Source of the DNA: Acidimicrobiaceae bacterium | Lineage (GTDB): Bacteria > Actinomycetota > Acidimicrobiia > Acidimicrobiales > Bog-793 | Length of the DNA: 47,546 nucleotides | Assembly (NCBI GenBank): GCA_003136185.1 | Contig: PLDN01000135.1 | Span: 30,653-78,198, forward strand | Reading direction: 5' to 3' | Shown: positions 1,351 through 40,429 of the stretch, in pieces | Layout: each line of letters starts with the position of its first letter | Position numbering within the stretch: position 1 is the first letter of the stretch | Made by a program: the position numbers and the translations under genes | Notes under the pieces: model-generated | The model's input: only the letters and a program-made list of their open reading frames with translations | Told to the model about the DNA's origin: nothing | The model's database searches: none

Positions 1351-2424
1351 TCACGTCCAAGTCTTCAGGACCGGAATCACCTCACTCGCAAACAGTCGTA
1401 GGGATCGCTCGGCCACCTCCGGCGGCATTCCTCCAAACCGGAAGGTGCTGAGGAGGTCGAAGCTGCCGAGGATTGACCGACGCTCGTCCAGACGCTTCAG
1501 CACTTGATCAGGCGTACCGTAAGCGCTGGCAGCCAGCCAGCTCTTCAGAAATCCCTCTAGACCTACCGAGCGAAGCGCCTCCGCCGCCTTGGCATATGAC
1601 TCATAACCCGTAGTCGATTCGAAGTGGGTACCCGTAACCTCGTAGTGCTCCAGGAGGCTCGGCAGGTATTGGCTCAGGTACTTGCTACCGAGCTCCTCGG
1701 CCTCGTTGGGATCTGCCAAACAGACCGTGAAGTCGCCTGTTGCGAGCGGTGGTGGATCTTGTCCGAACTTCAACCGATAGCTCTTCTGGTAGCGCTCGAC
1801 ACCGGGGAGGCGTGCGGACCACGGCCGATCAGCGAACATCGTCAGCCTCGCCCCAAGTCCGGCTGCCGCTTCCACGGACTCGTCACTGGAAGCGACGGCG
1901 TAGAGTCGATCAGAGAACGAGCGTTGTGGCCTCGGTCTGATGGGTGTTTTCGGCTGAGGATAGAAGCGCCCGGATCCCTCGATGCTGCCGGTTCGGAGCG
2001 CTTCGACGATCATCGCCGCCGATTCGTCGAAACGCTCTCGGGATTCGGCCATGTCTACGTCGGGGAAGTGGGCGTACTCTCTTCTCGCGAGCCCCCTGCC
2101 CAGTCCGAGACGTAGGCGGCCACCACACAGCTGATCAAGGACGGCGACGCGCTCCGCGATTTCCAGCGGGTTGTGATAAGGAAGAATGATAGCTGCCGTA
2201 CCAACGTCTATTCCGTTGCATGCTCCGGCAAGATACGACAGGATAACTGTGTTATCGGGACAGATCGAATAGTCGTAAAAGTGGTGCTCCGCTGACCAAA
2301 TGACGTCAAATCCTACGTCGGCGGCTATTTTCGCCAACGCAATCTCTTCCTCATAGACCTGCGCGTCGGAGATACCCTGTGACCATCCGTATGCTGTAAA
2401 GGTCATTTGAATGCCGACGTCCAT
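1351..2424 (-). CDS. LLM-class (luciferase-like) flavin-dependent oxidoreductase
   Basis: GFDVIWSAEHHF, VGTAAIILPYHNPLEIAERVAVLDQL..GRLRLGLGRG, GTPDQV, SLRLFASEVIP. Confidence 0.9.
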   Translation of the reverse strand: MDVGIQMTFTAYGWSQGISDAQVYEEEIALAKIAADVGFDVIWSAEHHFYDYSICPDNTVILSYLAGACNGIDVGTAAIILPYHNPLEIAERVAVLDQLCGGRLRLGLGRGLARREYAHFPDVDMAESRERFDESAAMIVEALRTGSIEGSGRFYPQPKTPIRPRPQRSFSDRLYAVASSDESVEAAAGLGARLTMFADRPWSARLPGVERYQKSYRLKFGQDPPPLATGDFTVCLADPNEAEELGSKYLSQYLPSLLEHYEVTGTHFESTTGYESYAKAAEALRSVGLEGFLKSWLAASAYGTPDQVLKRLDERRSILGSFDLLSTFRFGGMPPEVAERSLRLFASEVIPVLKTWT

Positions 2425-2475
2425 GGCATGCCTTCCTTCCTATCGAGTCGTTGGATGTCTGCCCCGTATGGTGTT

Positions 2476-3210
2476 TCACGTGCGCTCGGCGGGACGCCGA
2501 GCAAAGTGGCTGCCTCCGTCGATCGGCACGACGGTCCCGGTCACATGACTGGCATCATCGCCTACAAGGAAGGCGATCACGCCCGCGACCTCGTCGGCCG
2601 AACCGATTGTTTCCGTGGCCAGGTCTGCTTGCTGGCGGCGCAAGATGCGCGTACGGGGAGTGTCGATGACCCCGGGTGCGACGGCGTTGACGCGAACGTT
2701 GTGAGAGCTGAGCTCTCCAGCCAGGTGGATGGTCAGCCCGACAATCCCGGCCTTCGCCGCGCTGTACCAGTCCGATCCGCCCCCGACCATTGCCGCAATT
2801 GACGCCACGTTTACGATGCTGCCTTGATTCTGGCTCACCATTATCGGGCTGACCAACCTGCATAGCTCCCCGGTCATCCCGAGAGATTGGCTGATCCCGA
2901 CTGTGAAGCTCGCCTGTCCGGCCGGGGAGATCGCAGCCGGGCCGGCATTGTTGACCAGGATGTCTATCCGCTCACATTCCCGCACGATGTGGGCGATGAC
3001 TCTCTGTCGATTGTCCGAGCCGCCAAGGTCGGCGATGAAGGTGTGAACGCGCCCCAACGGTCCGAGCGAGTCAGCCGCTTGAGCGGTTGACTCCTTGTCC
3101 ATGTCGACGATCCAGACGGAGGCACCGGCAAGTATGAGCCTACGGCTCGTCGCATAGCCGATCCCGCTGGCTCCTCCTGTAACGATGGCGATTCGGCCCT
3201 CAAGCTCCAT
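2476..3210 (-). CDS. Short-chain dehydrogenase/reductase
   Basis: TGGASGIG, LVNNAG, IVNVAS, YSAAK, VRVNAVAPG, IDGG. Confidence 0.92.
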   Translation of the reverse strand: MELEGRIAIVTGGASGIGYATSRRLILAGASVWIVDMDKESTAQAADSLGPLGRVHTFIADLGGSDNRQRVIAHIVRECERIDILVNNAGPAAISPAGQASFTVGISQSLGMTGELCRLVSPIMVSQNQGSIVNVASIAAMVGGGSDWYSAAKAGIVGLTIHLAGELSSHNVRVNAVAPGVIDTPRTRILRRQQADLATETIGSADEVAGVIAFLVGDDASHVTGTVVPIDGGSHFARRPAERT

Positions 3211-3288
3211 GGGGCTCCCAAGATTTCAGTTGGTCGCAGCGCCCTGCGGGGTAGATGCGCGGCCCTCGCATGACGCCAGCCGCGCCGA

Positions 3289-4464
3289 TCAGATGACCGG
3301 CGCGGGCATGCCGGGGTCGTAGGGGAGGCCGAGTACGCGCTCGGCGATGAGGTTGCGCTGGACTTCTGCCGTGCCTGCTCCGATGGTCGAGCCTCTCGTC
3401 CGGAGGAATCCCCATGCCCACCGACCGCGCTGCACCGCCAGCCGGTCGCTGCCGCCGATGAGCCCGTTCGGGCCGATGATCTCGATTGCGAGCTCATGGA
3501 GACGCTTCTCGAAGAGGCTGTGCATGAGGCGGGTCACGGAGGACTCGGCCCCTGGATCCTCGCCCTTGAGCACGGCTGAGAGGATGCGCAGGTTGTTCAG
3601 ATGCAAGAGCCGGACCGAGGTCTCCATCTTCGCCAGCTCCTGTCGGATGATGGGGTCGCTCAACCTGCCGAGCTCGCCTGCGAGCTTCTCGAGGTCATCG
3701 AGGATGCGCCGGTACCCCATGTCGCGTGCGGTGTTGGCGGTGGAGCGCTCGAATCCGAGCGCGGTGCGTGCCACCTTCCACCCGTTGTTCTCTGCGCCCA
3801 CGACCTGAGTGACCGGTACCCGGACGTCCTCGAAGAAGACCTCTGAGAATCTGGTGTCTCCGGTCATGTCCTTTAGCGGCCGGATCGTGATGCCGTCGGT
3901 GCGCATGTCGATGATTAGGTAGGTGATGCCGTTGGCGCGGGATTCGTCAGAGCCCGTGCGCACGAGGGCTGCCATGAAGTCGGACGTCATGCTGTGGGAC
4001 GTCCACACCTTCTGGCCGTTCACCATGTACTCGTCGCCGTCCCGCACCGCCTTGGTTCGCAGCGAGGGAAGGTCCGAGCCAGCCTCGGGCTCGGAATAAC
4101 CGAGGCACCAGTCCTCGTCTCCCCGCACGATGGGAGGCAGGTAGCGATCGCGTTGCTCGGCATTCCCGAAGCGAAGGATCGTCGGGCCGACGATGCCGAG
4201 ACCGCCCGGCTGACGCGGGACGCGGGCCTTTGTCATCTCCTCGTGGTAGGCGACCTGCTCGGTGAGGCACAGCTCCATCCCGCCCCACGCCTTCGGCCAG
4301 GACGGGCCCGCGAAGCCCTTGTCGGCGAGCAATCTCGCCCACGCCTTTTGCCATTGCCGGCGCTCTTCTTGGTCCTTCGGGGGCCGCCCCGGGTTGTTCT
4401 CCTCGAGGAACGCCCGCAAGCGGGACCTGAGGTCTTCCGCCTTGTCGTCCAGGGCAAAGTCCAT
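3289..4464 (-). CDS. Acyl-CoA dehydrogenase, alpha/catalytic subunit of the heteromeric FadE26/ChsE4-like type
   Basis: WPKAWGG, WCLGYSEPEAGSDL, NGQKVWTS, FSEVFFEDV, LGFER (catalytic Glu), IGAGTAEVQRNLIAERVLGLP. Confidence 0.92.
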   Translation of the reverse strand: MDFALDDKAEDLRSRLRAFLEENNPGRPPKDQEERRQWQKAWARLLADKGFAGPSWPKAWGGMELCLTEQVAYHEEMTKARVPRQPGGLGIVGPTILRFGNAEQRDRYLPPIVRGDEDWCLGYSEPEAGSDLPSLRTKAVRDGDEYMVNGQKVWTSHSMTSDFMAALVRTGSDESRANGITYLIIDMRTDGITIRPLKDMTGDTRFSEVFFEDVRVPVTQVVGAENNGWKVARTALGFERSTANTARDMGYRRILDDLEKLAGELGRLSDPIIRQELAKMETSVRLLHLNNLRILSAVLKGEDPGAESSVTRLMHSLFEKRLHELAIEIIGPNGLIGGSDRLAVQRGRWAWGFLRTRGSTIGAGTAEVQRNLIAERVLGLPYDPGMPAPVI

Positions 4465-6095
4465 CAGTCACCTCCGTTGCTGGGTGCCAGCGCGCCGAGC
4501 TGGTCGAGTGGGAGCGCTTCCCGCTCTGCCATGGCGGCGACCGCCTTCCGATCGAGCTTGCTGTTCGGCGTGACGGGAAGGTCCTCCAACGAGAACCAGC
4601 GCCGCGGCAGCTTGTAGGCAGCCAATTGCTCGCGTGCCTCAGCGGCGAGCGTTCTCGCCAGCTCTTGCTCGCCACGGGCCGAGAGCATCTCGGGGTCCCA
4701 GATGATGGCGGCGGCAGGGATCTCGCCGAGCCGGTCGTCGGAGACCGCTACGACGACTGCCTCACGCACGAGCGGCGACTTGCGTAGGGCGTCCTCCACC
4801 TCAGCGGGGAAGACATTGAAGCCGCCGACGATGAGCATCTCCTTCGCTCGTCCGGTGATGTAGAGGATTCCGTGCTCGTCAATCCGGCCGAGATCACCGG
4901 TGTGGTACCAGCCCTCGTCGTCGAGCGGGAGCGATGTCTCGCCGTCTGCCGTCACCACGCGCCTCTGGTCCGGGCGGCCGAGGATCTCGCCCGACTCACC
5001 GACGGCGACTTCGCGGCGGGCCTCGTCCACGATCCTCCACACGCTGTCGGACGTGATCCGCCCGACCGAGCCGGGCCCTCGCCGGCCGGCGATCACGTCG
5101 TCGTAGTGCTCGAGGGCGCTCACTCCGCCCTCGGTCGAGCCGTATGCCTGCAGCACCGGCACCCCGTAGCGAGCTTCGAAGGCCTCGCGGGTGGAGACGG
5201 GCAAGGGAGCCGTTCCCGAGTTGACGTACTTGAGCGACCCGAGATTCACCGTCGTCTCGGTGAACGCGAGCATGTGCACCATGGCGGGCGTCAGCTGGAG
5301 CGTGTCGAGCGCATAGGTGTCTGCCAACTTCGCCACGACCTCCACGTCGAACTTGCGGATCATGACGAGCGGCCGCCCGACGAAGAGCCGGAAGACGAGC
5401 CGCCCGAAGCTCGCCGACTGGCCGAACGGGTTGAATGACAGCCCTGGCGGCTTGTCGTCGAGCGCTGTGGCGCGTGGCCGGAAGCCAGCGTGGTTCGAGT
5501 ACGCCTCCGCCGTGCGGCGCGGATTCTGCGCTAGCGGCCCGTGGTTCTTCACGAGAGCCTTCGCGTCGCCTGTCGTGCCTGAGGTGAAGAAGATGCAGGC
5601 AGCATCATCCGGAGTCGGGCGAACGACGGGCCCCGCGCTCGCAGGCGCGTCTTGAGTGTTTGAGCTGGCAGAGCGGTCTCCGACTTCGCTCCCGTCGGCC
5701 GAGACGGTGATCAGCGGCCAGCCCTCGAGCGGGTCGCTTCCCTCGGCGGTGATGACGACGCGCGGGTTGACGAGCTCGAAGCGACGGACTGCTTCGATCG
5801 CGGGAGAGACCGCCCCGCAGAGTGCTGCGACGGCGCCGAGACCCCAGGTCGCGAGCACCGCTACGACCCATGCCGGGTCGTTCCAGAGGTACAGCCCGAC
5901 GACGTCGCCGGGACCCACACCGGACTCGGCCAACCGGGAGCGGAGCCGGTCTGCCAGCTCGGCAATCTCGCCGTAGGTGTAAGCCACGCCGTCCGGTAGG
6001 AGCAAGAAGGGCTTGTCCGCGTCGCGCGCGACACGGATCTCGAACATCTCCGGGACGGTCTCCGGGTCCGCCTCGGTCGTGGTGTCGCTCGTCAA
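4464..6095 (-). CDS. Acyl-CoA ligase (AMP-binding, class I adenylate-forming)
   Basis: FFTSGTTGDAK, QAYGSTE, YHTGDLG, GRAKEML..GGFNVFPAEVE, TPNSKLDRK. Confidence 0.92.
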   Translation of the reverse strand: MTSDTTTEADPETVPEMFEIRVARDADKPFLLLPDGVAYTYGEIAELADRLRSRLAESGVGPGDVVGLYLWNDPAWVVAVLATWGLGAVAALCGAVSPAIEAVRRFELVNPRVVITAEGSDPLEGWPLITVSADGSEVGDRSASSNTQDAPASAGPVVRPTPDDAACIFFTSGTTGDAKALVKNHGPLAQNPRRTAEAYSNHAGFRPRATALDDKPPGLSFNPFGQSASFGRLVFRLFVGRPLVMIRKFDVEVVAKLADTYALDTLQLTPAMVHMLAFTETTVNLGSLKYVNSGTAPLPVSTREAFEARYGVPVLQAYGSTEGGVSALEHYDDVIAGRRGPGSVGRITSDSVWRIVDEARREVAVGESGEILGRPDQRRVVTADGETSLPLDDEGWYHTGDLGRIDEHGILYITGRAKEMLIVGGFNVFPAEVEDALRKSPLVREAVVVAVSDDRLGEIPAAAIIWDPEMLSARGEQELARTLAAEAREQLAAYKLPRRWFSLEDLPVTPNSKLDRKAVAAMAEREALPLDQLGALAPSNGGD

Positions 6096-7330
6096 AACGC
6101 CGTCTCCCCCTTCAATAGGTGGCGCGCGATGTTGCGCCGCATGATCTCGCTGCTCCCGTCAGCCACTCGGATGGCACGTGACTGGTGCCAGCCGTCGTAC
6201 AGGCGGGTCTCGTTCGTGAGACCCATGCCGCCGAGGACCTGCATGCTCCGGTCGAAGACGCGAAAGCACATCTCGGTCGAGTAGGCCTTCAAGATCGCCA
6301 TATCGCGCAGTGGCAGCTCGCCGCGCTCGAGTCGCCTGGCACAGTCGAGGGCCATCGACTTGGTGGCGTAAATGTCCATGGCGGACTCCGCCAGCTGGAA
6401 AGACACGCCCTGGTAGTCAGCAATGGGGTGCCCGAAAGCCTGGCGATCTTTCGAATAGTTGGTCGCCAGCTCGAGCGCCCAGCGCGCCAACCCGACGCAC
6501 CTGCCCGCGTTGTACATGCGGCCGAGGGAGACACCGTTGAGGGCGAGATCGAATCCCCGATGGAGCTCGCCGATCACGCTGTCGGCGGGAACGCGTACGT
6601 CCTTGAACGAGATGATTGCCTCATTGCCGCCGGGATGACCGAAGATCTTGATGATCGAGTCGATCGAGAACCCGGGGGAGTCGGTCGGGACGAGAAAGCA
6701 GCTGATCCCTCCTTTGTGGGTCAGCTTCATCTCTTCATCGGTCACGGCGAAGACGGTGGCGAACGCGGCATAGGGAGAGTTCGAGATCCATTGTTTCGTG
6801 CCGTTCAGGACCCAGCTGTCCCCGTCTTTCACAGCGTTCGTCCGCATCGACCACGCGTCAGACCCAGCATCGGGCTCGGACATTGCGAAGCACGTGGTCG
6901 CCTCACCGCTGACCAGACGCTCGAGTGCTCGCGTACGAAGCGCGGGCGTCATTTGCGTGAAAAGGAAGCTCGGTCCGTTCGTCCAGTGACCCAGCGCCTG
7001 ATACGGGAGGATACGGCCAGGCCCGTAGCGGCGGTACATGAATTCCCAGATCGAGACGTTGGCGATGGGGCCGAGTCCTCCTCCACCGATCTCCGTCGGG
7101 CACAAGATCGCGTAGTAGCCGGCCGCGGCCGACCTCATGCGCACCTGCCGCATGAGGGCTTGGAGCTCCTGGGAGTATCCGCCGGTCGGCCCGTATACCC
7201 ATGCCGGATCCTCGAGATGCTCGCGATGCTGCTCTTCGAGGGGCACGACCTCGCTGTCGATGAAGGCGCCGAGCCCTTGCTGGACTTCGGCCTCGAACGT
7301 GTCGGCGTCGAATGCGATGGTGGTGGTCAC
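6092..7330 (-). CDS. Acyl-CoA dehydrogenase (conventional fold, Asp at the MCAD catalytic position)
   Basis: FAMSEPDAGSD, LNGTKQWISN, RQAFGHPIADYQG, QVLGGMG, RVADGSSEI. Confidence 0.92.
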   Translation of the reverse strand: MTTTIAFDADTFEAEVQQGLGAFIDSEVVPLEEQHREHLEDPAWVYGPTGGYSQELQALMRQVRMRSAAAGYYAILCPTEIGGGGLGPIANVSIWEFMYRRYGPGRILPYQALGHWTNGPSFLFTQMTPALRTRALERLVSGEATTCFAMSEPDAGSDAWSMRTNAVKDGDSWVLNGTKQWISNSPYAAFATVFAVTDEEMKLTHKGGISCFLVPTDSPGFSIDSIIKIFGHPGGNEAIISFKDVRVPADSVIGELHRGFDLALNGVSLGRMYNAGRCVGLARWALELATNYSKDRQAFGHPIADYQGVSFQLAESAMDIYATKSMALDCARRLERGELPLRDMAILKAYSTEMCFRVFDRSMQVLGGMGLTNETRLYDGWHQSRAIRVADGSSEIMRRNIARHLLKGETAF

Positions 7331-9078: not shown

Positions 9079-9087
9079 GCAGCCTCC

Positions 9088-12204: not shown

Positions 12205-12219
12205 GGCGCCTCCGAAGAG

Positions 12220-33300: not shown

Positions 33301-33355
33301 TCTCGCCTCCTCGGCGTGCGGAGCGCCCAGCTTCGCTGGTGCTTATGCTCCGATA

Positions 33356-33371
33356 ACTTATACGTACAAGC
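33356..33371. promoter_or_regulatory. HutC-type palindromic operator variant
   Basis: ACTTATACGTACAAGC in the divergent ACAD/AMACR intergenic region. Confidence 0.55.
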
Positions 33372-33429
33372 GCGCTGGGGCCAACTCTCGATTCGAGAAC
33401 GCCCAGAGGACGACGGGATGTGTGAGCCG

Positions 33430-33564
33430 ATGAGCAACACCGACAAGGCTGCTGGCCGACGAAGCGCCGGGGAACCCGTTGCGTACGAGCGATCGATTGC
33501 GGACGGGCCGCCTTTCGCACTGACTCGAGTGCAGTCGCGGGCGACTAGGCGAGGCTCGCTGTGA
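33430..33564 (+). pseudogene. Possible collapsed crotonase remnant (44 aa)
   Basis: GEPVAYER resembles a crotonase N-terminus and IADGPPFAL a crotonase C-terminal helix; its stop overlaps the AMACR start (GTGA). Confidence 0.35.
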
Positions 33565-34709
33565 GCGGCCCGCTCGCGGGCATCCGCGTCCTCGAGTTTG
33601 CCGGGATCGGACCCGGGCCATTTGCCGGGATGCTGCTCGCCGATCTCGGCGCGGACGTCGTCCGCCTCGAGCGGCCACAGCCGCCGTCGCCGGCGCACCG
33701 CAAGGCTCGATTCGACGTGATGCAGCGAGGCAAGCGCTCGTTCGTGCTCGACCTCAGGCAACCGGCGGGAGTAGAGCTGGCACTCGAACTGGTGGTGACG
33801 GCGGACGCAGTGATCGAGGGGTTCAGGCCGGGAGTGATGGAGCGTCTCGGCGTCGGGCCAGCGGAGTGCCTTGCCCGCAACCCACGTCTCGTCTTCGGGC
33901 GGATGACTGGTTGGGGCCAGAGTGGACCGCTCGCTGACCGAGCAGGTCACGACATCAACTATGTGGCGCTGTCCGGGGCCCTGTACGCGATCGGGCGGTC
34001 AGGCGAGAACCCAGTGCCGCCGCTCAATCTTGTCGGCGATTTCGGAGGAGGCGGCCTCCTTCTCGCGTTCGGCATCCTCGCCGCCCTGTGGGAGAGCCGT
34101 GGCTCTGGCGCTGGCCAGGTGGTGGACGCGGCCATGGTGGATGGTGCCGCACTGCTCACGACGCTCTTTCACGGGATGGCCGCCGATGGCCGCTGGAGCG
34201 ATGAGAGAGGCACCAACATGCTCGACTCCGGCGCTCCGTTCTACGAGGTGTACGCGTGCGCGGACGGCGCATTTGTCGCGGTCGGAGCGATCGAGCCCCA
34301 GTTCTACGCAGAGCTCCTAGGCGTGATGGGCCTCGACGAGGCTGCGCTCCCGCCAAATTCGGACCAGTCGGCGTGGCCCGAGCTGAAGGAGCGCTTCGCT
34401 TCGGTCTTCTCCACGAAGACGCGAGACGAGTGGATCGCGCTCGCGGCGGGAACAGATGCCTGTATCACTCCCGTGCTCTCGTTCGGCGAGGCGCCGCGGC
34501 ACCCGCACAATCTCGCGAGGGATGCTTTCGTGGAAGTCGGTGGCGTGGTTCAGCCCGCTCCGGCGCCGCGCTTCAGCCGTACCAACGGGGCCACGCCGGC
34601 GCCGCCGCTCGGCCCGGGAGGCGGTGGTCGGGCGGCGTTACTCGACTGGGGTCTGACGGCAGACCGCCTGGACGAATTGGCACGCGCCGGGGTGGCGATG
34701 TTCGAGTGA
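33561..34709 (+). CDS. CaiB/BaiF family, alpha-methylacyl-CoA racemase (Mcr/AMACR-like)
   Basis: [46 protein letters not shown] (catalytic His), [13 protein letters not shown] (catalytic Asp), [11 protein letters not shown]. Confidence 0.9.
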
Positions 34710-35431
34710 GCCAAGAGCCACCGTGCCTGTTGCTGGTACACGGCTTTGCCTCTTCAGCGCGAAAGTCATGGCACCGCTATGGATGGGTCGAGACGTTCGT
34801 GCAGCTGGGATTCGACGTGGTCGCGCCGGACCTTCCCGGCCACGGCGATGCTCCGAAATATGAGGATCCCGATGCCTACTCCACCCTGGAGACCGACCTC
34901 TACGACCTCGTCGCACACCGCGACGAGGTCCTGGCAGCCGGTTTCAGCGCAGGCGGGCTCATGATCCTCCGAATTGAAGCGGACCATCCGGGAACTTTCT
35001 CCCGGATGGCCGTCGGGGGAGTGGGCGCGAACGTGCTCGCCCACCCGCCTGCCGGAGCGCTCGCGAGGGCGCTCGAGAGTGGCGATCCCGAGGACGCGGC
35101 CGGCAACCCGCTTGCCGAGGTCCTAGTGAGGGTGGGGGAGCGGTCGGGTCATCACCAGAAGGCACTCGTGGCATTCCTGCGCCGGCCCAATCGGCGCCGC
35201 CTGTCTACCGAAGAGCTCTCTCGCATCGGATGCCCAATCCTTGCGGTGGTAGGCCGGGACGACGCCGCGGTCCAACCTGTCGAGCGATTCACCAACTTGC
35301 TAAAGGACCCGACGATCCTCGAGATCCCGGGCGCCGACCACTTCGGCACTATGCGCAGCCCGCTGTGGCTCGGGGCGGCGCGCGAGTTCCTCTGCAGGGA
35401 ACAAGGCCGTGAGGTAGCTCGCGACGGCTGA
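34706..35431 (+). CDS. Alpha/beta-fold hydrolase
   Basis: [21 protein letters not shown] nucleophile elbow, GRDD, ADHF; GTGA-coupled. Confidence 0.85.
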
Positions 35432-35761: not shown

Positions 35762-36994
35762 TCACGATCGACGGATGTCCCGCCATGGGATGCCGCCGTC
35801 GGCGGATGGTTCTCTCGGAAGGCCGAGCACCCGCTCACCGAGGATGTTGTGCTGCATCTCCGACGAGCCGCCCGCAATGGTTTGCGAGCGGACCCGCAAG
35901 AACGCGTACGCGCTCGCATCAGCCCAGCGGTCGTCCGGCCGGTGGGCGATCCCGTTCAGCCCTTCGAGGTCGAGCGAAAGAGTTTGAAGCGCCTGCGCGT
36001 TGTCGCTGTTGAAGAGCTTCAACAGCGAAGCCTCGAAGCCGGTTGCCCTTCCCTGCTTTCGAGCAGCATCGACTCGCTCGCGCGTCCATGCTGCTACACG
36101 CTCGCAGGAGTACGCATGAGCCATCCGCTCGAGCGTTATCGGATCCTCCACTCTCCCGTAGTGACGGCGGAGCGCGTCGACGCTGCGACCCATCTCCATC
36201 CCAGGCGGAGCCGTCCCGCCGCCCCCGCCGGTGCCTCGTTCGAAGGTGAGCAGCTGGCTGGCGATCTGCCATCCCTCGCCAAGCTCGCCGACCCGCATGG
36301 AGTCCGAGCAGACGACGTCGTCGAAGAAGACCTCGTTGAAGCGTGACTCGCCCGTCATCTGTCTGAGCGGTCGCACCGTGATTCCTGGCGTCGACATGTC
36401 GAGCAGCAGGACGCTCAATCCCTGACGCTTCGGCACGTCGGGATCGGTCCGGCACAACAGGAAGCCGAACTGCGCGCGGTGGGCGTGACTCGACCAGATC
36501 TTCTGGCCGTTGATGACCCAGAGGTCACCGTCCCTCACGGCTCGCGTCGAGAGGCCTGCGAGGTCGGAGCCGGCGCCAGGTTCACTGAAGAGCTGTACCC
36601 AGATCTCCTTCTGATTGCTGATCGGCGGGAGGAAGCGGGCCCGTTGCGCCTCGTTCCCCCACCGCAGTAGTGCGTGGGCGACGTTCAGGCCGAGCGGGTT
36701 ATCAGAACGGGGCACCTTGTAGGACCGGAGCACGTTGTTTACGTTCGCGGTCTGCTCGGGAGCGAGACCGAGACCCCCGTAGGCGACCGGCCAGTTGGAG
36801 AAGTACCAGCCTGCTTCTCCGAGGCGCTCCCACCAGTCGTCGACATCGAGGGCTTGGCGCGCCGCTGCGAGCGCTCCGGAGTCGCCCTCGTCGATGGCGG
36901 TGACCCAGGTCTTCGGAAGGTTCTCGCGGAGCCAGCCCGTTACGGCGTCGCGGATCTCGTCGTCGCTTCGTGTCGCGATGTCGGCTGCGGTCAC
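35762..36994 (-). CDS. Acyl-CoA dehydrogenase, alpha-type
   Basis: WPVAYGGLG, WVQLFSEPGAGSDLAGL, NGQKIWSS, FNEVFFDD, LTFER, TIAGGSSEMQHNILGERVLGLPREP. Confidence 0.92.
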   Translation of the reverse strand: MTAADIATRSDDEIRDAVTGWLRENLPKTWVTAIDEGDSGALAAARQALDVDDWWERLGEAGWYFSNWPVAYGGLGLAPEQTANVNNVLRSYKVPRSDNPLGLNVAHALLRWGNEAQRARFLPPISNQKEIWVQLFSEPGAGSDLAGLSTRAVRDGDLWVINGQKIWSSHAHRAQFGFLLCRTDPDVPKRQGLSVLLLDMSTPGITVRPLRQMTGESRFNEVFFDDVVCSDSMRVGELGEGWQIASQLLTFERGTGGGGGTAPPGMEMGRSVDALRRHYGRVEDPITLERMAHAYSCERVAAWTRERVDAARKQGRATGFEASLLKLFNSDNAQALQTLSLDLEGLNGIAHRPDDRWADASAYAFLRVRSQTIAGGSSEMQHNILGERVLGLPREPSADGGIPWRDIRRS

Positions 36995-37160: not shown

Positions 37161-38432
37161 TCAGGCTCTCGCCCGCCTTTGCGTCAGCGCCCGCAACGCG
37201 GCTTTTGCGACGGCTCGTGAGGGATGGAGCTCGGCGACGCCGCCGAGCACGAGGAGATCGTCCCTGCTGTCGTGCGCCGAGATACGACCGACGAGAGCAA
37301 TTTGCTGAGCGTGGTTGCCAGCGAGCGCAAGGGTATCGAGGAAGGAGTCGTCCGGATTCCCCACCAGCTGCACCGTGAGCACCTCGACGAAGAAGTCGAG
37401 ATTCTCTTCGCTGTAGAGGCCGCGGGCGTCCTCGAAATCGTGCTCGACGAGCCATGTTGCGGCAAATGCCCTCGTGCCGGGCTCGGTCGCGAGCTCTCGA
37501 ACCGCCGGCTCGGCCACTTCCAAGCCTGCCTCGGCAAGCATGGCCCCGGCCACGGCCCGCAAGCCGGGGTCCTCGCAGACGCGGATCGCCTCGACGAGCT
37601 CCTCGACAGCCTGTTCTTCTGACCGCGCTGCGATCCAGCTGCGGGCGTCACGTTCGAAGGCAACCCTCGCACCGTGCTCCAGCGACGCCAAGAGCTGAGT
37701 TGCGCTCGCTCCGATCATGGTCTCGGCGATCGGGGCGTCGTATCCGGCCTCGATGAGCCAGCGCCTCGTCGTATCGATGCCGGCTCCGGTGAGTGCGACC
37801 GTGCCGTCGACCCTGGCAGCGAGATTGCTTCCCTGCGGCGTCGTGCGCCGCTCTCTCCACTCGACGAGGCCAGCGAACGCGAGGCCGTCCATCATCGATC
37901 CGATATGCGGAAGGACATGGTGGAAGTCCCACTCGAGCGCCGAATCGACAGTGATCTCGGCATCCGCGGGATCGGTGGCAAGCCGTGCGAGCTCTTGAAC
38001 AGGAACGGCACCTCCAGCGGTGTAGAGCACGGCGAGAAGCGCCACGGTGTTCTGGTCGATGAGGCGCTCCACCTCATGCGGTCGCCGACCCATCGTGAGA
38101 GCCCTCAACGTGAGAGCTCCAGTGTCACGCACGACGTCGACGACGTCGTCGAAGGCACTGATTGGATCTGCGGCGAACAGCTTGCCCTTCGGTGTGGCCT
38201 TGAGGCCTACTCTTGAACGGCGCAGCAACCCGGCCTCACTCGCCCAAAGGATCAGGTGTGCCTCGGTCTCAGCCGAGCGGTCGAACTGTCGCCGTGCGGC
38301 GCGCGCCACCAGCGGAACGAGTTCGCGAATCACTGCAGCGTTTGCCCTCGAGCGCGTCAATTCCGCGGCGGACGGCAATACCACCGGCGGCAGTGGCGGC
38401 TCGCTTGTCGGCTTCTCGTAGTCCGCTGTCAT
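37161..38432 (-). CDS. Hypothetical protein (actinobacterial; PLPPVVLPS...AGYDAP motifs)
   Basis: 423-aa ORF with plausible composition filling the space between two clear genes; function not recognised. Confidence 0.7.
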   Translation of the reverse strand: MTADYEKPTSEPPLPPVVLPSAAELTRSRANAAVIRELVPLVARAARRQFDRSAETEAHLILWASEAGLLRRSRVGLKATPKGKLFAADPISAFDDVVDVVRDTGALTLRALTMGRRPHEVERLIDQNTVALLAVLYTAGGAVPVQELARLATDPADAEITVDSALEWDFHHVLPHIGSMMDGLAFAGLVEWRERRTTPQGSNLAARVDGTVALTGAGIDTTRRWLIEAGYDAPIAETMIGASATQLLASLEHGARVAFERDARSWIAARSEEQAVEELVEAIRVCEDPGLRAVAGAMLAEAGLEVAEPAVRELATEPGTRAFAATWLVEHDFEDARGLYSEENLDFFVEVLTVQLVGNPDDSFLDTLALAGNHAQQIALVGRISAHDSRDDLLVLGGVAELHPSRAVAKAALRALTQRRARA

Positions 38433-38471: not shown

Positions 38472-38492
38472 CGCGCGTAGGCTGCAGCGTCA

Positions 38493-39527
38493 GTGACCTC
38501 TCCCAGACCCTCCGATGAATGGCTAGAGCCAGGCGTCTTCGAAGTCGTGAAGGACGTCTTCCGGATACCTTTGCCGCTGCCGAACGACGCTCTGCGCGCG
38601 GTCAACGTGTACCTATTGAAGGGCGCGAGCGGTCTCGTATGCATTGATTCCGGTTGGTCGCTGCCAGAGTCCCGAGAGCGTCTCGTGCGGTGCCTTACTT
38701 CTCTTGAGTGTGGTCCCGAGGATATCGAGAGATTCCTCGTGACCCACGTGCACCGGGACCACTACACCCAGGCCATCGCTCTCCGCCGGGAGCACCGGAC
38801 GAAGGTGAGTCTCGGGGCAGGGGAGCGGCCCGCGTTGGAAGAGCTTCGCCGCCCTGGCTACTCCGGCCTCCAGCGCCGGACGCAAGAACTCAGGCGGAAC
38901 GGCGCCCACGAGGTCGCCGATCGCTTCTACCGCGAGCGCGCCGGTCAGCCGGGCCCAACGGCCTCCGATTGGGAGTTACCTGACGACTGGCTGACCGGGG
39001 GTGACGTGGTGCGAGCTGCGGACAGGACGCTGGCCGTGATTGAGACTCCAGGCCACACCCGGGGACACGTGGTCTTCCACGACGCGGAACGATGCCTGCT
39101 GTTCGCCGGCGACCACGTTCTGCCGACGATAACCCCGTCGATCGGGTTCGAAGTCGTTCCCTCACCGGACCCTCTAGGGGACTTCCTCAGGTCGCTTGCT
39201 CGTGTGCGGCAACTGCCAGACGCGATGCTGCTGCCGGCGCACGGCCCCGTCGTGCCGAGCGCTCACGCTCGCATCGACGAGCTCGTGGACCACCACGGCA
39301 GGCGTTTGGACAACAGCCTCGCGGCGCTTCGCGCCGGGGCAGACACGGCCTATGAGGTGGCTCTGCAGCTCAAGTGGACGAGGCGGGAGCTGAGCTTCGA
39401 CGAGCTGGACCTGTTCAATCAATCACTTGCCGTCTCGGAGACGGCGGCCCACTTGGTCCTCCTCGAGGCACAAGGGCGCGCGCGCCTTAGCCATGAGGAT
39501 GAGGTCAACAAGTTCGCCGCCGTCTAG
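38493..39527 (+). CDS. MBL-fold metallo-hydrolase
   Basis: IPLPLP, VNVYL, IDSG, THVHRDH, TPGHTRGH, AGDHVLP.ITP, LPAHG. Confidence 0.92.
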   Translation: MTSPRPSDEWLEPGVFEVVKDVFRIPLPLPNDALRAVNVYLLKGASGLVCIDSGWSLPESRERLVRCLTSLECGPEDIERFLVTHVHRDHYTQAIALRREHRTKVSLGAGERPALEELRRPGYSGLQRRTQELRRNGAHEVADRFYRERAGQPGPTASDWELPDDWLTGGDVVRAADRTLAVIETPGHTRGHVVFHDAERCLLFAGDHVLPTITPSIGFEVVPSPDPLGDFLRSLARVRQLPDAMLLPAHGPVVPSAHARIDELVDHHGRRLDNSLAALRAGADTAYEVALQLKWTRRELSFDELDLFNQSLAVSETAAHLVLLEAQGRARLSHEDEVNKFAAV

Positions 39528-39547
39528 CTGACCGATAGGTTGCCACG

Positions 39548-40429
39548 ATGCAGACCGACGCCGACTTCCTCGGGATTACCGCCGCCGACGCTGGCCGTTC
39601 CCGCTTCACCGTGATCGAGCGCCTCGCGCGACTCGACGGCCGCCTCTACGGCGGCGCAGCAATTGCTGTCTCGATCGCGGAGGCCGAGCGGGTGACCGAG
39701 CGCCCCGCGCTGTGGGTCACGACACAGTTCGTGTCGACGGTCGAGAGCGGAGAAGAGGTCGATGTTCTCACCGAGGTGCTCGCTGTGGGCCGCCGCACGT
39801 GCCAGGTCCGGGTCACCGCGAGCAACCAGTCCGGTGAGGTGATCTTCGCCTCGTTGGGTGCCACCGGCAGCCATCGACCCGACGGTCTCACGGGCGTCTT
39901 CGAGAAGTGCCCGACAGTGACGCCGCCATCAGACGCGGATCCGTGGCTGAGTCCCTTCAGCGGCGTGGCGAAAGCGGCGGGCCTCGACCAACACAGGGCG
40001 CCGCTGCGCAAGGCAGGCTTCACTCTCGCAGTCGAGATGCGCGAGCCCGCCGTGCTGCTGCACCCCGAGCCTGGGCCGGGACGAATTTGCCTGTGGGTTC
40101 GCCGCGCTGACTGCGTCGCGGTCACACCGGCCGTCGCCGGCTATCTCGCGGACATGGTCCCCATGAGCGTCGGGTACGCCTTAGGCGTTGTCGCGGGTGG
40201 CACGAGTCTCGACAACACGATCCGCATCGGCTCGTTCGTTGACACCGAGTGGATCCTGCTCGACCTCCGACCGCACCTCGCCGCCGGCGGCTACGCCCAC
40301 GGCGTCGTGCACGTTTGGAGCGAGGACGGCCACTTGCTCGCGACCGCAAGCCAGACGGCCTCCATGATCCAGTTCGACCCATCGCACATCCCGGGTCTCG
40401 CCGAGGCTCCCGACGGTTCACCGACCTGA
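39548..40429 (+). CDS. Acyl-CoA thioesterase II-like (double hot-dog)
   Basis: LYGG, GRRTCQVRV, YLADMVP, GTSLDNTIR, WSEDGHLLATASQ. Confidence 0.85.
   Translation: MQTDADFLGITAADAGRSRFTVIERLARLDGRLYGGAAIAVSIAEAERVTERPALWVTTQFVSTVESGEEVDVLTEVLAVGRRTCQVRVTASNQSGEVIFASLGATGSHRPDGLTGVFEKCPTVTPPSDADPWLSPFSGVAKAAGLDQHRAPLRKAGFTLAVEMREPAVLLHPEPGPGRICLWVRRADCVAVTPAVAGYLADMVPMSVGYALGVVAGGTSLDNTIRIGSFVDTEWILLDLRPHLAAGGYAHGVVHVWSEDGHLLATASQTASMIQFDPSHIPGLAEAPDGSPT

What the first reader, a model, noticed from the sequence alone, without database searches (positions are those of the whole stretch)
1351..40429. A ~39-kb uncharacterised acyl-CoA catabolic regulon, probably for a branched or alicyclic carboxylic acid
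About 30 genes cover uptake (Liv-type ABC), activation (ligase, two fused CoA-transferases), 8 ACADs, S- and R-type hydratases, dehydrogenases, thiolase, racemase (alpha-methyl branches), carboxyltransferase + MaoC + CitE lyase (beta-methyl branches) and thioesterase. Nearly every transcription unit carries a shared operator. Parts resemble the mycobacterial cholesterol, leucine/itaconate and Pseudomonas atu pathways, but KstD/Hsa/Ipd ring genes and AtuA were not seen, so it fits no pathway I recognise. The substrate class (isoprenoid, naphthenic or steroid side-chain acid) is inference. This is the best candidate for an undescribed system in the window.
Basis: partly seen in the sequence, partly recalled or inferred. 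Interest (0 to 1): 0.75.

Follow-up and report, generated by a model that had tools for sequence, protein, structure and literature searches.

The report
Branched-acid breakdown gene island
A 38-kb block of about 33 genes in a peat-type Acidimicrobiales bacterium that appears to import an unidentified methyl-branched organic acid and break it down as CoA esters; it is real and conserved, but it is a fairly ordinary kind of catabolic cluster and its substrate is still unknown.

Summary
The gene inventory is real. 32 ORFs with Pfam families plus one conserved hypothetical lie in 1351-40429. They include 8 acyl-CoA dehydrogenases, an Mcr-type racemase, an MFE-2-type (3R)-hydroxyacyl-CoA dehydrogenase, a FadA5-type thiolase, two fused family-III CoA-transferases, an ACAD-carboxyltransferase-MaoC-CitE block and a Liv-type ABC importer.

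32 of the 33 genes are colinear in one other Acidimicrobiales MAG (G041). 17 recur in a more distant metagenome contig (L033), 14 of them on one strand. A same-genus genome (G001) has an empty site, so this is an accessory island spanning about 1334-39528.

The "shared operator" is real but narrower than claimed. The 16-mer ACnTGACTGGACAAGT occurs four times, at 3 of 6 promoter regions around the GntR/UTRA gene, and all four copies are unchanged in G041.

No characterised pathway matches one-to-one. Alpha-methyl handling is well supported. The beta-methyl (Atu-like) reading is not: the carboxyltransferase is PCC-like and has no adjacent biotin carboxylase. A separate AtuA/MCC-type cluster lies elsewhere in the genome.

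A complete steroid pathway is unlikely, because no KshA or IpdAB family was found.

Verdict: a new variant of a known kind, substrate unresolved, moderate interest.

The parts
1351..2424 (-). Luciferase-like (LLM) flavin oxidoreductase; last gene of the left operon and the left end of the island.
   Evidence: Pfam Bac_luciferase 160 bits. 90% aa identity in G041. No DNA match in G001 beyond window 1333.
2476..3210 (-). SDR1, a FabG-like short-chain dehydrogenase.
   Evidence: Pfam adh_short. All NCBIfam hits are below cut-off.
3289..4464 (-). ACAD_L1, the 'large' subunit type of heteromeric acyl-CoA dehydrogenases.
   Evidence: Pfam ACAD N/M/C domains. pimC_large 236 bits, below the 624 cut-off.
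4464..6095 (-). Acyl-CoA ligase (AMP-binding).
   Evidence: Pfam AMP-binding plus AMP-binding_C. No NCBIfam model passes its cut-off. 45% orthologue next to the fused CoA-transferase in G341 and L027.
6092..7330 (-). ACAD_std1, a standard-type acyl-CoA dehydrogenase.
   Evidence: Pfam.
7327..7944 (-). TetR-family regulator (TetR_N + TetR_C_24) embedded in the left operon.
   Evidence: Pfam. 89% aa identity in G041.
7963..9078 (-). ACAD_S1, the 'small' subunit type.
   Evidence: IpdE2 model 243 bits, below the 450 cut-off; pimD_small 204 bits.
9088..10302 (-). MaoC2x, a double-hotdog (R)-type enoyl-CoA hydratase. The start is refined to the ATG at 10302.
   Evidence: Pfam FAS1_DH_region and a weak MaoC hit. 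Start. 45-50% orthologues sit beside the fused CoA-transferase in G341, L029 and L033.
10295..11125 (-). ECH1, a crotonase-fold protein with a non-canonical active site (His/His at the two catalytic-Glu columns).
   Evidence: Pfam ECH_1. Alignment. 57-61% orthologues in G341, L027, L029 and L033.
11163..12074 (-). SDR2, an MFE-2/Hsd4A-type (3R)-hydroxyacyl-CoA dehydrogenase; first gene of the left operon.
   Evidence: 291 bits to 1gz6 and 283 bits to 1zbq.
12189..12235 (+). Two operator copies (12189-12204 and 12220-12235) of ACnTGACTGGACAAGT in the divergent SDR2/SBP promoter region. The second copy contains a -35-like TGGACA, then 17 nt, then TAACAT.
   Evidence: Both copies are exact in G041.
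12313..13557 (+). Lipoprotein substrate-binding protein (Peripla_BP_6, lipobox LLASC).
   Evidence: Pfam. Start and RBS. Translation. Only distant LivJ-type PDB hits (E 3e-8).
13621..14385 (+). GntR-family regulator of the HutC type (wHTH + UTRA); the presumed operator-binding repressor.
   Evidence: Pfam GntR + UTRA. 90% aa identity in G041.
14531..14546 (+). Third operator copy, upstream of livH. It is followed by a vestigial copy of the SBP leader and first codons.
14782..18313 (+). ABC importer: LivH permease (14782-15639), LivM-LivG fusion (15636-17534) and LivF ATPase (17531-18313).
   Evidence: Pfam BPD_transp_2 and ABC_tran. 49-55% orthologues beside the L033 operon.
18330..19121 (-). 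ECH2, a canonical crotonase with both catalytic Glu columns kept.
   Evidence: EchA19 model 254 bits, below the 400 cut-off. Alignment.
19211..19226 (+). Fourth operator copy, 80 nt upstream of the CoAT2x_A start codon.
19306..21552 (+). CoAT2x_A, a fused tandem family-III CoA-transferase (748 aa). Only the C-terminal half keeps the catalytic Asp.
   Evidence: Pfam shows two stretches. C-half 114 bits to BbsF 9fn0_B and N-half 59 bits to BbsE 9fn0_A. Asp column is D in 23 of 23 C-halves and 0 of 23 N-halves.
21598..22521 (-). CitE/HpcH-family acyl-CoA lyase (start uncertain; it overlaps the MaoC 3' end).
   Evidence: Pfam. Best PDB hit is malyl-CoA lyase 4l9y at 107 bits; M. tuberculosis CitE chains score 50-60 bits.
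22473..22967 (-). Single-domain MaoC (R)-hydratase of the itaconyl-/mesaconyl-CoA hydratase kind.
   Evidence: RipB/Ich model 128 bits, below the 340 cut-off. Pfam MC_hydratase 55 bits.
22980..24485 (-). Carboxyltransferase (acyl-CoA carboxylase beta type) without an adjacent biotin carboxylase.
   Evidence: 76% orthologue in L033 in the same ACAD-CT-MaoC-CitE order.
24482..25639 (-). ACAD_std2, a standard short/branched-chain-type ACAD.
   Evidence: 286 bits to 3r7k; IVD and butyryl-CoA DH score 235-249 bits.
25691..26803 (-). ACAD_S2, small subunit type.
26808..27992 (-). FadA5-type 3-ketoacyl-CoA thiolase, start-stop coupled to CoAT2x_B. In G041 a 1031-bp deletion removed it.
   Evidence: NF005889 539 bits, above the 515 cut-off. 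432 bits to FadA5 4ubv. G041 remnant of 37 codons.
27989..30337 (-). CoAT2x_B, the second fused family-III CoA-transferase (about 782 aa), 46-50% identical to CoAT2x_A.
30327..31124 (-). ECH3, a crotonase-fold protein with Asp/Trp at the two catalytic-Glu columns.
   Evidence: 56% orthologue in L033.
31133..33300 (-). Adjacent ACAD_L2 (31133-32269) and ACAD_S3 (32266-33300): a ChsE4/ChsE5-like heteromeric pair. First genes of the right operon.
   Evidence: ACAD_L2 scores 177 bits to 4x28_A and to Tcur3483. 4-nt start/stop overlap.
33347..33384 (.). 38-nt block identical in G041 within a diverged intergenic region. It contains the palindrome ACTTATACGTACAAGC (33356-33371): a second operator type or a weak GntR site.
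33561..34709 (+). Alpha-methylacyl-CoA racemase (Mcr orthologue).
   Evidence: 455 bits, residues 1-363 to 1-358 of 1x74. 63% orthologue at the head of the L033 operon.
34706..35431 (+). Alpha/beta-hydrolase, start-stop coupled to Mcr here and in L033.
35762..36994 (-). ACAD_L3, large subunit type.
   Evidence: 46-52% orthologues next to ECH1 in G341, L027, L029 and L033.
37161..38432 (-). Conserved hypothetical (HEAT-repeat-like); no evident enzymatic role.
   Evidence: No Pfam family. Substitutions against G041 are biased to codon position 3. Atlas neighbours are actinobacterial hypotheticals.
38493..39527 (+). MBL-fold hydrolase; right end of the island relative to G001.
   Evidence: Pfam Lactamase_B. 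The G001 DNA match resumes at window 39529.
39548..40429 (+). Thioesterase II (TesB-like). It is adjacent to the cluster in G000 and G041 but also present in G001, which lacks the cluster.
   Evidence: Pfam 4HBT_3 and 4HBT_3C..

Best explanation
Window ~1334-39528 is an accessory catabolic island of an Acidimicrobiales bacterium. It imports an unidentified carboxylic acid that carries 2-methyl branches and is probably bulky and/or dicarboxylic, and degrades it as CoA thioesters. The proposed steps are as follows. (1) Uptake by a lipoprotein SBP with a LivH / LivM-G / LivF ABC importer. (2) Activation by one AMP-ligase and by two fused family-III CoA-transferases. Each is an intramolecular pseudo-heterodimer with a single active site in its C-terminal half. 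(3) Dehydrogenation by three ChsE4/5-like heteromeric ACAD pairs and two standard ACADs. (4) Hydration and oxidation along an (R)-specific branch (double-hotdog MaoC + MFE-2-type dehydrogenase) and an (S)-type crotonase (ECH2), with Mcr racemising 2-methylacyl-CoA. Two crotonase-fold proteins with non-canonical active sites (ECH1, ECH3) do some other step. (5) C-C cleavage by a FadA5-type thiolase where present, and by a CitE-type lyase. (6) A terminal block, ACAD - PCC-like carboxyltransferase - small MaoC - CitE, together with CoAT2x_A, disposes of a short branched or C5-dicarboxylic end product and/or propionyl-CoA. (7) Control by a HutC-type GntR repressor that binds ACnTGACTGGACAAGT over the -35 region of the SBP-gntR, livHMGF and CoAT2x_A promoters, and probably of the divergent left operon and ECH2. 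A TetR and a second palindrome act on the rest. Shown here: the gene families, four clear orthologies or close family matches (Mcr, FadA5, MFE-2 dehydrogenase, ChsE4-like ACAD), conserved linkage, island status and operator conservation. Inferred: every reaction assignment, the repressor-operator pairing and the substrate class.
For: Families. Matches to solved structures: Mcr 455 bits, FadA5 432 bits, MFE-2 dehydrogenase 291 bits, ChsE4/Tcur3483 177 bits. Linkage: 32 of 33 genes are colinear in G041 at 75-95% aa identity, and 0 of 8 flank ORFs were found there. 17 of the genes recur in L033 at 46-76% identity; 14 form a one-strand run and 3 are convergent liv genes. A smaller core (ACAD_L, ACAD_S, MaoC2x, fused CoAT, ECH1, ACAD_L3, ligase) is seen in G341, L027 and L029. 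Purifying selection: 55-81% of G000/G041 differences fall at codon position 3 in all 31 genes tested. Island status: in G001 (RpoB 99.2% identical) window 1-1333 and 39529-43365 lie 4.3 kb apart on one contig. Operator. Single active site: the Asp column is D in 23 of 23 C-halves and 0 of 23 N-halves. PCC-like carboxyltransferase. RNA libraries labelled peat (X1, X2) and permafrost (X3) hold short contigs with 0 mismatches to at least 12 of the genes.
Against: No substrate is identified. The SBP has only distant LivJ-type relatives among solved structures (E 3e-8), so an amino-acid ligand is not excluded. Only the central third of the island carries the exact operator, so a single regulon is not shown. 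The thiolase is deleted in G041 and absent from the part of L033 that I could see, so the cleavage chemistry is unclear. The carboxyltransferase has no biotin carboxylase partner on its contig, and its clade was judged only from score differences, not from a tree. The dicarboxylate idea rests on weak similarity: 114 bits to BbsF, and 168-191 bits to the succinate-glutarate CoA-transferase model against a cut-off of 750. The RNA-library contigs may be DNA carry-over; no silent control stretch was laid.
Confidence: 0.6

Rival explanations
1. It is a sterol or bile-acid side-chain degradation cluster, possibly for C24-branched plant sterols. The carboxyltransferase, hydratase and lyase would remove the C24 branch, and the beta-oxidation genes would shorten the side chain.
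For: The clearest matches are to cholesterol side-chain enzymes: FadA5 (NF005889 above cut-off; 432 bits), ChsE4-like ACAD, an EchA19-like crotonase (254 bits, below the 400 cut-off), a Hsd4A/MFE-2-type dehydrogenase and Mcr.
Against: No KshA_C (PF19298) and no class-I CoA-transferase (PF01144, the IpdAB fold) were found in the 90%-complete genome. The window has no P450, Mce, Ltp2/SCP-x or DUF35 family. FadA5 is deleted in G041 and absent from the visible part of L033. Uptake is by a soluble-ligand HAAT-type ABC system. The EchA19, IpdE2 and CasG models are all below cut-off.
Confidence: 0.12
2. It is not one pathway but a chance neighbourhood of housekeeping modules: branched-chain amino-acid uptake, a leucine/isovalerate block (ACAD-CT-MaoC-CitE, as in M. 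tuberculosis Rv2498c-Rv2502c) and generic fatty-acid beta-oxidation.
For: The ABC system is Liv-type and its nearest solved SBPs bind Leu/Ile/Val. The ACAD-CT-MaoC-CitE block recalls the mycobacterial leucine/itaconate operon (gene order recalled, not checked by any search). The exact operator covers only the central part.
Against: All modules stay linked in G041 and in the more distant L033, where 14 genes lie on one strand. The island is missing from the syntenic site of a congener, so it is accessory, not housekeeping. M. tuberculosis CitE chains score only 50-60 bits against 107 bits for malyl-CoA lyase. No biotin carboxylase is adjacent. No branched-chain keto-acid dehydrogenase family is in the window.
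Confidence: 0.1
3. It is an Atu/Liu-like acyclic-terpene pathway, in which the carboxyltransferase carboxylates the beta-methyl group and MaoC and CitE replace AtuE and LiuE.
For: An ACAD-carboxyltransferase-hydratase-lyase order is the logic of beta-decarboxymethylation. Geranyl-CoA carboxylase beta (5ikl_B) is a detectable homologue at 243 bits.
Against: The carboxyltransferase scores higher to PCC-beta/12S/MMD chains (300-345 bits) than to MCC/GCC/AccD1 chains (243-272 bits). Against the mmdA/PccB model it groups with the C13 paralogue (376 and 411 bits), not with the carboxyltransferase that sits beside a biotin carboxylase (271 bits). A complete CT - BC/BCCP (BT_MCC_alpha domain) - AtuA (556 bits) - crotonase set lies elsewhere on contig C174. 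No AtuA or HMGL-like family is in the window.
Confidence: 0.07

Closest known systems
Actinobacterial cholesterol side-chain beta-oxidation (M. tuberculosis ChsE4-ChsE5, EchA19, Hsd4A, FadA5, Mcr)
   Same: A FadA5 orthologue, a ChsE4-like heteromeric ACAD, an MFE-2/Hsd4A-type (3R)-dehydrogenase, MaoC-type hydratases and an Mcr orthologue. The logic is the same: bulky, 2-methyl-branched acyl-CoA.
   Different: The window has no P450, Mce transporter, Ltp2 aldolase or DUF35. No KshA or IpdAB family was found in the genome. Uptake is by a Liv-type ABC system. It adds two fused CoA-transferases and a CT-MaoC-CitE block. Control is by GntR/TetR rather than KstR (the KstR comparison is recalled, not tested).
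Peroxisomal branched-chain beta-oxidation (AMACR + MFE-2 + SCPx), from established knowledge
   Same: A racemase, an (R)-specific hydratase 2 and a (3R)-dehydrogenase. SDR2 scores 283-291 bits to human and rat MFE-2 dehydrogenase domains.
   Different: The bacterial genes are separate, dehydrogenases replace oxidases, and there is no SCP2 domain.
C5-dicarboxylate CoA pathways: itaconate (Ict-Ich-Ccl / RipABC) and mesaconyl/beta-methylmalyl-CoA (Mct-Mch-Mcl)
   Same: A family-III CoA-transferase, a MaoC hydratase and a CitE-type lyase lie side by side. The lyase's best solved relatives are malyl-/beta-methylmalyl-CoA lyases. The hydratase hits the RipB/Ich and mesaconyl-CoA hydratase models.
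   Different: All equivalog models are far below cut-off (128 vs 340, 115 vs 375, 142 vs 700). The CoA-transferase is a fused tandem. An ACAD and a carboxyltransferase are inserted in the block.
Benzylsuccinate CoA-transferase BbsEF (a heteromeric family-III enzyme)
   Same: The N-half of CoAT2x_A best matches the BbsE chain and the C-half best matches the BbsF chain of 9fn0. This is a two-different-halves architecture.
   Different: The similarity is weak (59 and 114 bits). The halves are fused into one chain. The rest of the bbs operon is absent, and the organism shows no glycyl-radical context in the window.
Rhodopseudomonas palustris pim operon (PimCD pimeloyl-CoA dehydrogenase with Liv-type SBPs for fatty and dicarboxylic acids), from recalled knowledge
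   Same: Large and small ACAD subunits linked to a HAAT-type ABC importer. PimC and PimD are the top NCBIfam models for four of the ACADs.
   Different: Scores are 200-236 bits against cut-offs of 624-653, so these are not orthologues.
Pseudomonas Atu/Liu acyclic terpene utilisation
   Same: The carboxylase-hydratase-lyase idea.
   Different: See the membership test. The true Atu-like set of this genome is on another contig.

Membership tests
Atu/Liu acyclic terpene utilisation | A gamma-carboxylating (MCC/GCC-clade) carboxyltransferase paired with an adjacent biotin carboxylase/BCCP subunit | tested here: not met
   PCC/12S chains score 300-345 bits against 243-272 bits for GCC/MCC/AccD1. The 3 biotin carboxylases of G000 lie on contigs C183, C174 and C137, none on C65.
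Atu/Liu acyclic terpene utilisation | An AtuA protein in the cluster | tested here: not met
   No PF07287 among the 47 window ORFs scanned. AtuA (556 bits) lies on contig C174 beside an MCC-type alpha/beta pair and a crotonase.
Actinobacterial cholesterol side-chain pathway | A FadA5-type steroid 3-ketoacyl-CoA thiolase | tested here: met
   NF005889 539 bits against a cut-off of 515. 432 bits to 4ubv; the next family scores 271 bits.
Actinobacterial cholesterol side-chain pathway | The ChsH1-ChsH2/Ltp2 aldolase system and terminal oxidation (Cyp125) with Mce4 uptake | tested here: not met
   No SCP-x/Ltp-type thiolase, DUF35, p450 or MCE family in the window.
Aerobic steroid nucleus degradation (needed for a complete steroid pathway) | KshA oxygenase and the IpdAB ring-D hydrolase | tested here: not met
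   PF19298: 0 matches. PF01144: 0 matches. Both in G000, which is 90.2% complete. Absence in an incomplete genome is not proof.
Itaconate degradation (Ict/Ich/Ccl, RipABC) | Ich/RipB and Ccl/RipC at equivalog level | tested here: not met
   RipB_Ich 127.8 bits against 340; RipC_Ccl 114.7 bits against 375.
M. tuberculosis leucine/itaconate operon (Rv2498c-Rv2502c) | A CitE orthologous to Rv2498c, and AccA1 adjacent to AccD1 | tested here: not met
   The chains named citE or citrate lyase beta-like (1u5h, 1z6k, 6aq4) score 50-60 bits, against 107 bits for malyl-CoA lyase. No biotin carboxylase is adjacent.
Alpha-methylacyl-CoA racemase (Mcr/AMACR) | Full-length close similarity to a solved racemase, and the catalytic Asp column kept | tested here: met
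   455 bits, residues 1-363 to 1-358 of 1x74; generic CoA-transferases score <=129 bits. Asp is present at the shared catalytic column. Residue roles are recalled.
MFE-2 / Hsd4A-type (3R)-hydroxyacyl-CoA dehydrogenase | Close similarity to the MFE-2 dehydrogenase domain rather than to FabG-type SDRs | tested here: met
   283-291 bits to 1zbq and 1gz6, against <=135 bits to FabG-type chains.
HutC-subfamily GntR repressor with local operator | An N-terminal GntR wHTH plus a C-terminal UTRA domain, and a palindromic site at its own promoter | tested here: met
   Pfam GntR 72 bits plus UTRA 53 bits. Two copies of the 5-N6-5 inverted repeat lie 78-124 nt upstream of the SBP-gntR operon. Binding itself is not testable with these tools.
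Family-III CoA-transferase (active enzyme) | The catalytic Asp in each protomer of the interlocked dimer | tested here: inconclusive
   The C-halves keep Asp (23 of 23). The N-halves never have it (0 of 23: Leu 20, Trp 1, Tyr 1, Cys 1). This predicts one active site per chain. The column assignment relies on an alignment at 23-30% identity.
PimCD pimeloyl-CoA dehydrogenase | pimC_large and pimD_small at equivalog level | tested here: not met
   Best scores are 236 against 624 and 204 against 653.

The most novel reading that the evidence does not exclude
The island encodes an undescribed route for methyl-branched dicarboxylic acids. Candidate substrates are ring-cleavage products of alicyclic or terpenoid acids, or branched membrane-spanning diacids of peat bacteria. 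Single-active-site fused family-III CoA-transferases would activate or re-position CoA on the two carboxyl ends. Non-canonical crotonases (ECH1 His/His, ECH3 Asp/Trp) would do a ring-opening or other non-hydratase step. The chain would leave through a thiolase-independent CitE-type lyase, with the propionyl-CoA produced carboxylated by the dedicated PCC-like subunit.
Probability: 0.2. Interest if true: 0.65.

Novelty: new variant of a known kind. Interest (0 to 1): 0.4.

Why it matters
Acidimicrobiia are abundant but uncultured in peat and soils, and their carbon sources are poorly known. This is a conserved, transferable 38-kb island with its own importer and a sharply defined operator. Identical fragments of it occur in peat and permafrost RNA libraries. 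That makes it a tractable handle for ligand screens of the SBP and of the UTRA domain, to find out which recalcitrant branched, alicyclic or dicarboxylic lipids these bacteria consume. The fused family-III CoA-transferase, with a catalytically dead N-terminal half, represents a large unstudied family: at least 431 database homologues, all unnamed. Otherwise the enzymology is of familiar kinds.

Tried and rejected
1. Solved-structure searches gave nothing close for the SBP (best E 3e-8) or for MaoC2x (best E 2e-4), so no ligand inference was possible.
2. I tried to extend L033 beyond the 22 kb held, but the record is not held, so its SBP and regulator side is unseen.
3. The genome contigs pattern scan found only 2 loci. 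The metagenome scan found 9, of which 3 are long enough to read context.
4. Literature: four full-text searches found no paper describing this gene combination. They covered Rv1866 + CoA transferase; Acidimicrobiia + beta-oxidation terms; racemase + family-III CoA-transferase + MaoC terms; and racemase + carboxyltransferase + citrate lyase terms. I read search listings only. A search for the BbsEF structure paper returned three papers that only mention the enzyme, and I did not read them.
5. I used the CitE context in the one other Acidimicrobiia genome with a hit (G176) as a guide to module function. It shows only CitE next to a single-domain CoA-transferase, with no CT or MaoC.
6. Earlier-findings look-ups returned nothing.
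7. orf159 (35508-35987) is rejected as a confident gene. It has no family, and its 3' half is antisense to ACAD_L3, which explains its apparent hit in L027.
8. The weak operator look-alike at 13588 is not counted, since it is not above chance.
9. Parts of the stretch without cover in RNA-library contigs are not interpreted.
10. The control (the reversed pattern also gives 4 hits at <=1 mismatch) shows that the genome-wide count alone is not significant.

Full report
THE OBJECT

The window is G000:C65:30653-78198, part of a 3.81-Mb, 193-contig, 90%-complete genome. GC content is even at 62-69%. I sent 47 candidate ORFs to Pfam and 36 had a family. Within 1351-40429, 32 genes carry families and one more, orf423, is a conserved hypothetical. 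I refined start codons from RBS and overlap patterns.

The layout is ten inferred transcription units.
- Left operon, minus strand, 12074 to 1351: SDR2, ECH1, MaoC2x, ACAD_S1, TetR, ACAD_std1, ligase, ACAD_L1, SDR1, LLM.
- SBP-GntR (plus strand).
- livH, livM-G, livF (plus strand).
- ECH2 (minus strand).
- CoAT2x_A (plus strand).
- Right operon, minus strand, 33300 to 21598: ACAD_S3, ACAD_L2, ECH3, CoAT2x_B, thiolase, ACAD_S2, ACAD_std2, CT, MaoC, CitE.
- Mcr-abH (plus strand).
- ACAD_L3.
- orf423.
- MBL-TE2.

WHAT THE PROTEINS ARE

Against NCBIfam, only one of the 38 proteins scanned passes an equivalog cut-off: the thiolase (steroid 3-ketoacyl-CoA thiolase NF005889, 539 bits against 515).

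Comparison with solved structures gives four clear assignments.
- The single-domain CoA_transf_3 protein is an alpha-methylacyl-CoA racemase. It scores 455 bits, full length, to M. tuberculosis Mcr, while generic CoA-transferases score <=129 bits.
- The thiolase is FadA5-type: 432 bits, with the next family at 271 bits.
- SDR2 is an MFE-2-type (3R)-hydroxyacyl-CoA dehydrogenase: 283-291 bits to the rat and human domains.
- ACAD_L2 is nearest to the steroid-type heteromeric ACADs ChsE4 and Tcur3483 at 177 bits.

The six 'large' and 'small' ACADs hit the PimC/PimD/IpdE2 models far below cut-off.

Of the three crotonases, only ECH2 keeps acidic residues at both columns where canonical hydratases have their catalytic glutamates (residue roles are recalled). 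ECH1 has His/His and ECH3 has Asp/Trp at those columns, and the same residues are kept in the L033 orthologues.

THE FUSED COA-TRANSFERASES

The two long proteins are 46-50% identical to each other. Each contains two family-III domains.

For CoAT2x_A, the C-half best matches the BbsF chain of benzylsuccinate CoA-transferase (114 bits) and the N-half best matches the BbsE chain (59 bits). I aligned the halves with the window's Mcr and a single-domain relative. At the column of the shared catalytic Asp, both C-halves have Asp and both N-halves have Leu.

In an alignment of 23 fused homologues, the C-half Asp is present in 23 of 23. The N-half column is never Asp: Leu 20, Trp 1, Tyr 1, Cys 1. Family-III enzymes are interlocked dimers (established knowledge). 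The fusion therefore predicts an intramolecular pseudo-heterodimer with one active site.

The family is large but unnamed. 431 proteins reach E<=1e-20 among the 8000 candidates scored, and the 120 listed are 45-99% identical and 620-795 aa long. It is rare in genome representatives:
- 3 of 401 Acidimicrobiia genomes at E<=1e-100, counting G000.
- 1 of 401 Actinomycetota genomes, G000 alone, using CoAT2x_B as query.

THE ACAD-CT-MAOC-CITE BLOCK

The carboxyltransferase scores 300-345 bits to PCC-beta, transcarboxylase 12S and MMD-alpha chains. It scores 243-272 bits to AccD1, MCC-beta and GCC-beta.

G000 has six carboxyltransferase paralogues. Against the mmdA/PccB subfamily model they score as follows:
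- the C113 copy, 739 bits (canonical);
- the window copy, 376 bits;
- its 63%-identical C13 paralogue, 411 bits;
- the C174 copy, 271 bits.

The C174 copy sits next to a biotin carboxylase/BCCP with a BT_MCC_alpha domain, an AtuA protein (556 bits) and a crotonase. The genome's Atu/MCC-type machinery is therefore elsewhere. No biotin carboxylase lies on C65. One lies beside methylmalonyl-CoA mutase on C183.

The CitE is nearest to malyl-/beta-methylmalyl-CoA lyases (98-107 bits) and far from the M. tuberculosis CitE chains (50-60 bits). The small MaoC hits the RipB/Ich and mesaconyl-CoA hydratase models below cut-off.

Together with the divergently transcribed CoAT2x_A, this block resembles C5-dicarboxylyl-CoA chemistry followed by propionyl-CoA carboxylation more than beta-methyl removal. 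This is inference from score differences, not from a tree.

CONSERVATION AND ISLAND STATUS

One genome-collection hit, G041 contig C10 (record title 'MAG: Acidimicrobiales bacterium isolate SPRUCE 675'), carries 32 of the 33 genes in the same order at 75-95% amino-acid identity. None of the 8 flanking ORFs of the window was found there. DNA identity is even at 82-91%, and 55-81% of differences fall at codon position 3 in all 31 genes tested.

The exception is the thiolase. G041 has a 1031-bp deletion that leaves its first 37 codons. The thiolase was therefore ancestral to both genomes and was lost in G041.

A metagenome contig (L033) at 46-76% identity has a one-strand run: Mcr, abH, ACAD_S, ACAD_L, ECH1, ECH3, ACAD_L3, MaoC2x, fused CoAT, ACAD_S, a second double-hotdog protein, ACAD_std2, CT, MaoC, CitE. 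It is followed by convergent livF, livM-G and livH. No thiolase is in view.

A smaller core (ACAD_L, ACAD_S, MaoC2x, fused CoAT, ECH1, ACAD_L3, ligase) occurs in G341, L027 and L029.

RpoB is 99.2% identical to G001, 98.0% to G002 and 89.5% to G041. Yet G001 contig C282 has window 1-1333 and 39529-43365 only 4.3 kb apart. Two WS/DGAT genes, a patatin-like gene and a hypothetical lie there instead of the cluster. G002 shows no DNA match to the cluster.

The island proper is therefore about 1334-39528. Thioesterase II is a neighbour shared with G001. Non-cluster ORFs of G041 have best hits in G000 of 31-83% identity, some of them possibly paralogues. The cluster proteins are therefore more similar than the background, which is consistent with lateral exchange but does not prove it. 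I saw no integrase, tRNA or flanking repeat.

REGULATION

The 13-mer TGACTGGACAAGT occurs exactly four times in the window. At <=1 mismatch it occurs nowhere else in the genome, although the reversed control pattern also gives 4 hits at <=1 mismatch, so the count alone proves nothing.

All four copies are exact and on the + strand. They end 78-109 nt (SBP), 80 nt (CoAT2x_A) and 236 nt (livH) before the start codons. In the livH case the site ends about 70 nt before a vestigial copy of the SBP leader and first codons.

All four copies are kept letter for letter at the same places in G041, while the surrounding intergenic DNA has diverged. Extended, the site reads ACnTGACTGGACAAGT, a 5-N6-5 inverted repeat. 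It contains a -35-like TGGACA, followed after 17 nt by TAACAT at the SBP promoter.

Its position next to, and upstream of, the GntR/UTRA gene makes that protein the likely binder. This is inference.

Two other promoter regions carry 100%-conserved blocks with the half-site G[G/T]ACAAG: 33347-33384, with the palindrome ACTTATACGTACAAGC, and 38456-38492. They may be weaker sites for the same protein or sites for the TetR protein.

ALTERNATIVES

A complete steroid pathway is unlikely. No KshA_C family and no class-I CoA-transferase family were found in the genome. The window has no P450, Mce, Ltp2 or DUF35 family.

A chance assembly of housekeeping modules is contradicted by the conserved linkage and by the empty site in G001.

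The Atu-like reading is contradicted by the carboxyltransferase comparisons and by the separate AtuA cluster.

The substrate remains open. The combination points to a bulky, 2-methyl-branched and possibly dicarboxylic or alicyclic-derived acid, which is all inference. The elements are:
- racemase and (R)-specific enzymes;
- ChsE-type ACADs;
- non-canonical crotonases;
- dicarboxylate-type CoA-transferases;
- a soluble-ligand importer.

IN SITU SIGNAL

Three RNA libraries labelled peat (X1, X2; two studies) and permafrost (X3) contain short assembled contigs of 150-386 nt. These have 0 mismatches to SDR2, GntR, livH, livM-G, livF, ECH2, CoAT2x_A, CT, ACAD_std2, ACAD_S2, thiolase, CoAT2x_B and ECH3. 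DNA carry-over is not excluded, I laid no silent control stretch, and contigs give no expression levels.

VERDICT

This is a real, conserved, accessory catabolic island with a well-defined local operator. It is a new variant of the familiar actinobacterial branched-lipid and CoA-ester catabolic clusters, and its substrate is unknown. The most distinctive molecular feature is the fused, single-active-site family-III CoA-transferase. Interest is moderate.

Noticed in passing
window 570-1193 (-): The WS/DGAT (wax-ester synthase) gene left of the island is an internally deleted 207-aa version. The G001 orthologue is 479 aa with both domains, and about 620 bp of it has no counterpart in the window.
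   Followed up: partly
window 14560-14710 (+): The livH upstream region holds a copy of the SBP promoter, operator, RBS and first ~12 codons, followed by a short open frame. It is also present in G041. It looks like a relic of a duplicated SBP gene or a leader peptide.
   Followed up: partly
L009 17542-17652 (G041): G041 keeps only the first 37 codons of the FadA5-type thiolase, after a 1031-bp deletion between CoAT2x_B and ACAD_S2.
   Followed up: yes
L056 5115-11333 (G000 contig C174:20114-26332): A separate Atu-like set: carboxyltransferase (545 aa), biotin carboxylase/BCCP with a BT_MCC_alpha domain, AtuA (556 bits) and a crotonase.
   Followed up: partly
window 10295-11125 and 30327-31124 (-): ECH1 and ECH3 lack the canonical catalytic Glu pair (His/His and Asp/Trp). 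The same residues are kept in the L033 orthologues, which suggests non-hydratase chemistry.
   Followed up: partly
window 41872-42147 (-): A small ORF with a sub-threshold Phd/YefM antitoxin match (25.9 bits against a cut-off of 29.8). It is 63% conserved in G001. I did not examine a partner toxin.
   Followed up: no
window 45087-47546 (+), running on to C65:79578: A large (1279-aa) Kelch-repeat beta-propeller protein with an fn3 domain. It has a paralogue on contig C81.
   Followed up: no
G000 C65:89614-91187 (outside the window): A second MBL-fold hydrolase (64% identical to the island's) lies next to a MaoC paralogue (39%), about 19 kb downstream on the same contig.
   Followed up: no
window 35508-35987 (+): orf159 has no family, and its 3' half is antisense to ACAD_L3. 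It is probably not a gene.
   Followed up: partly
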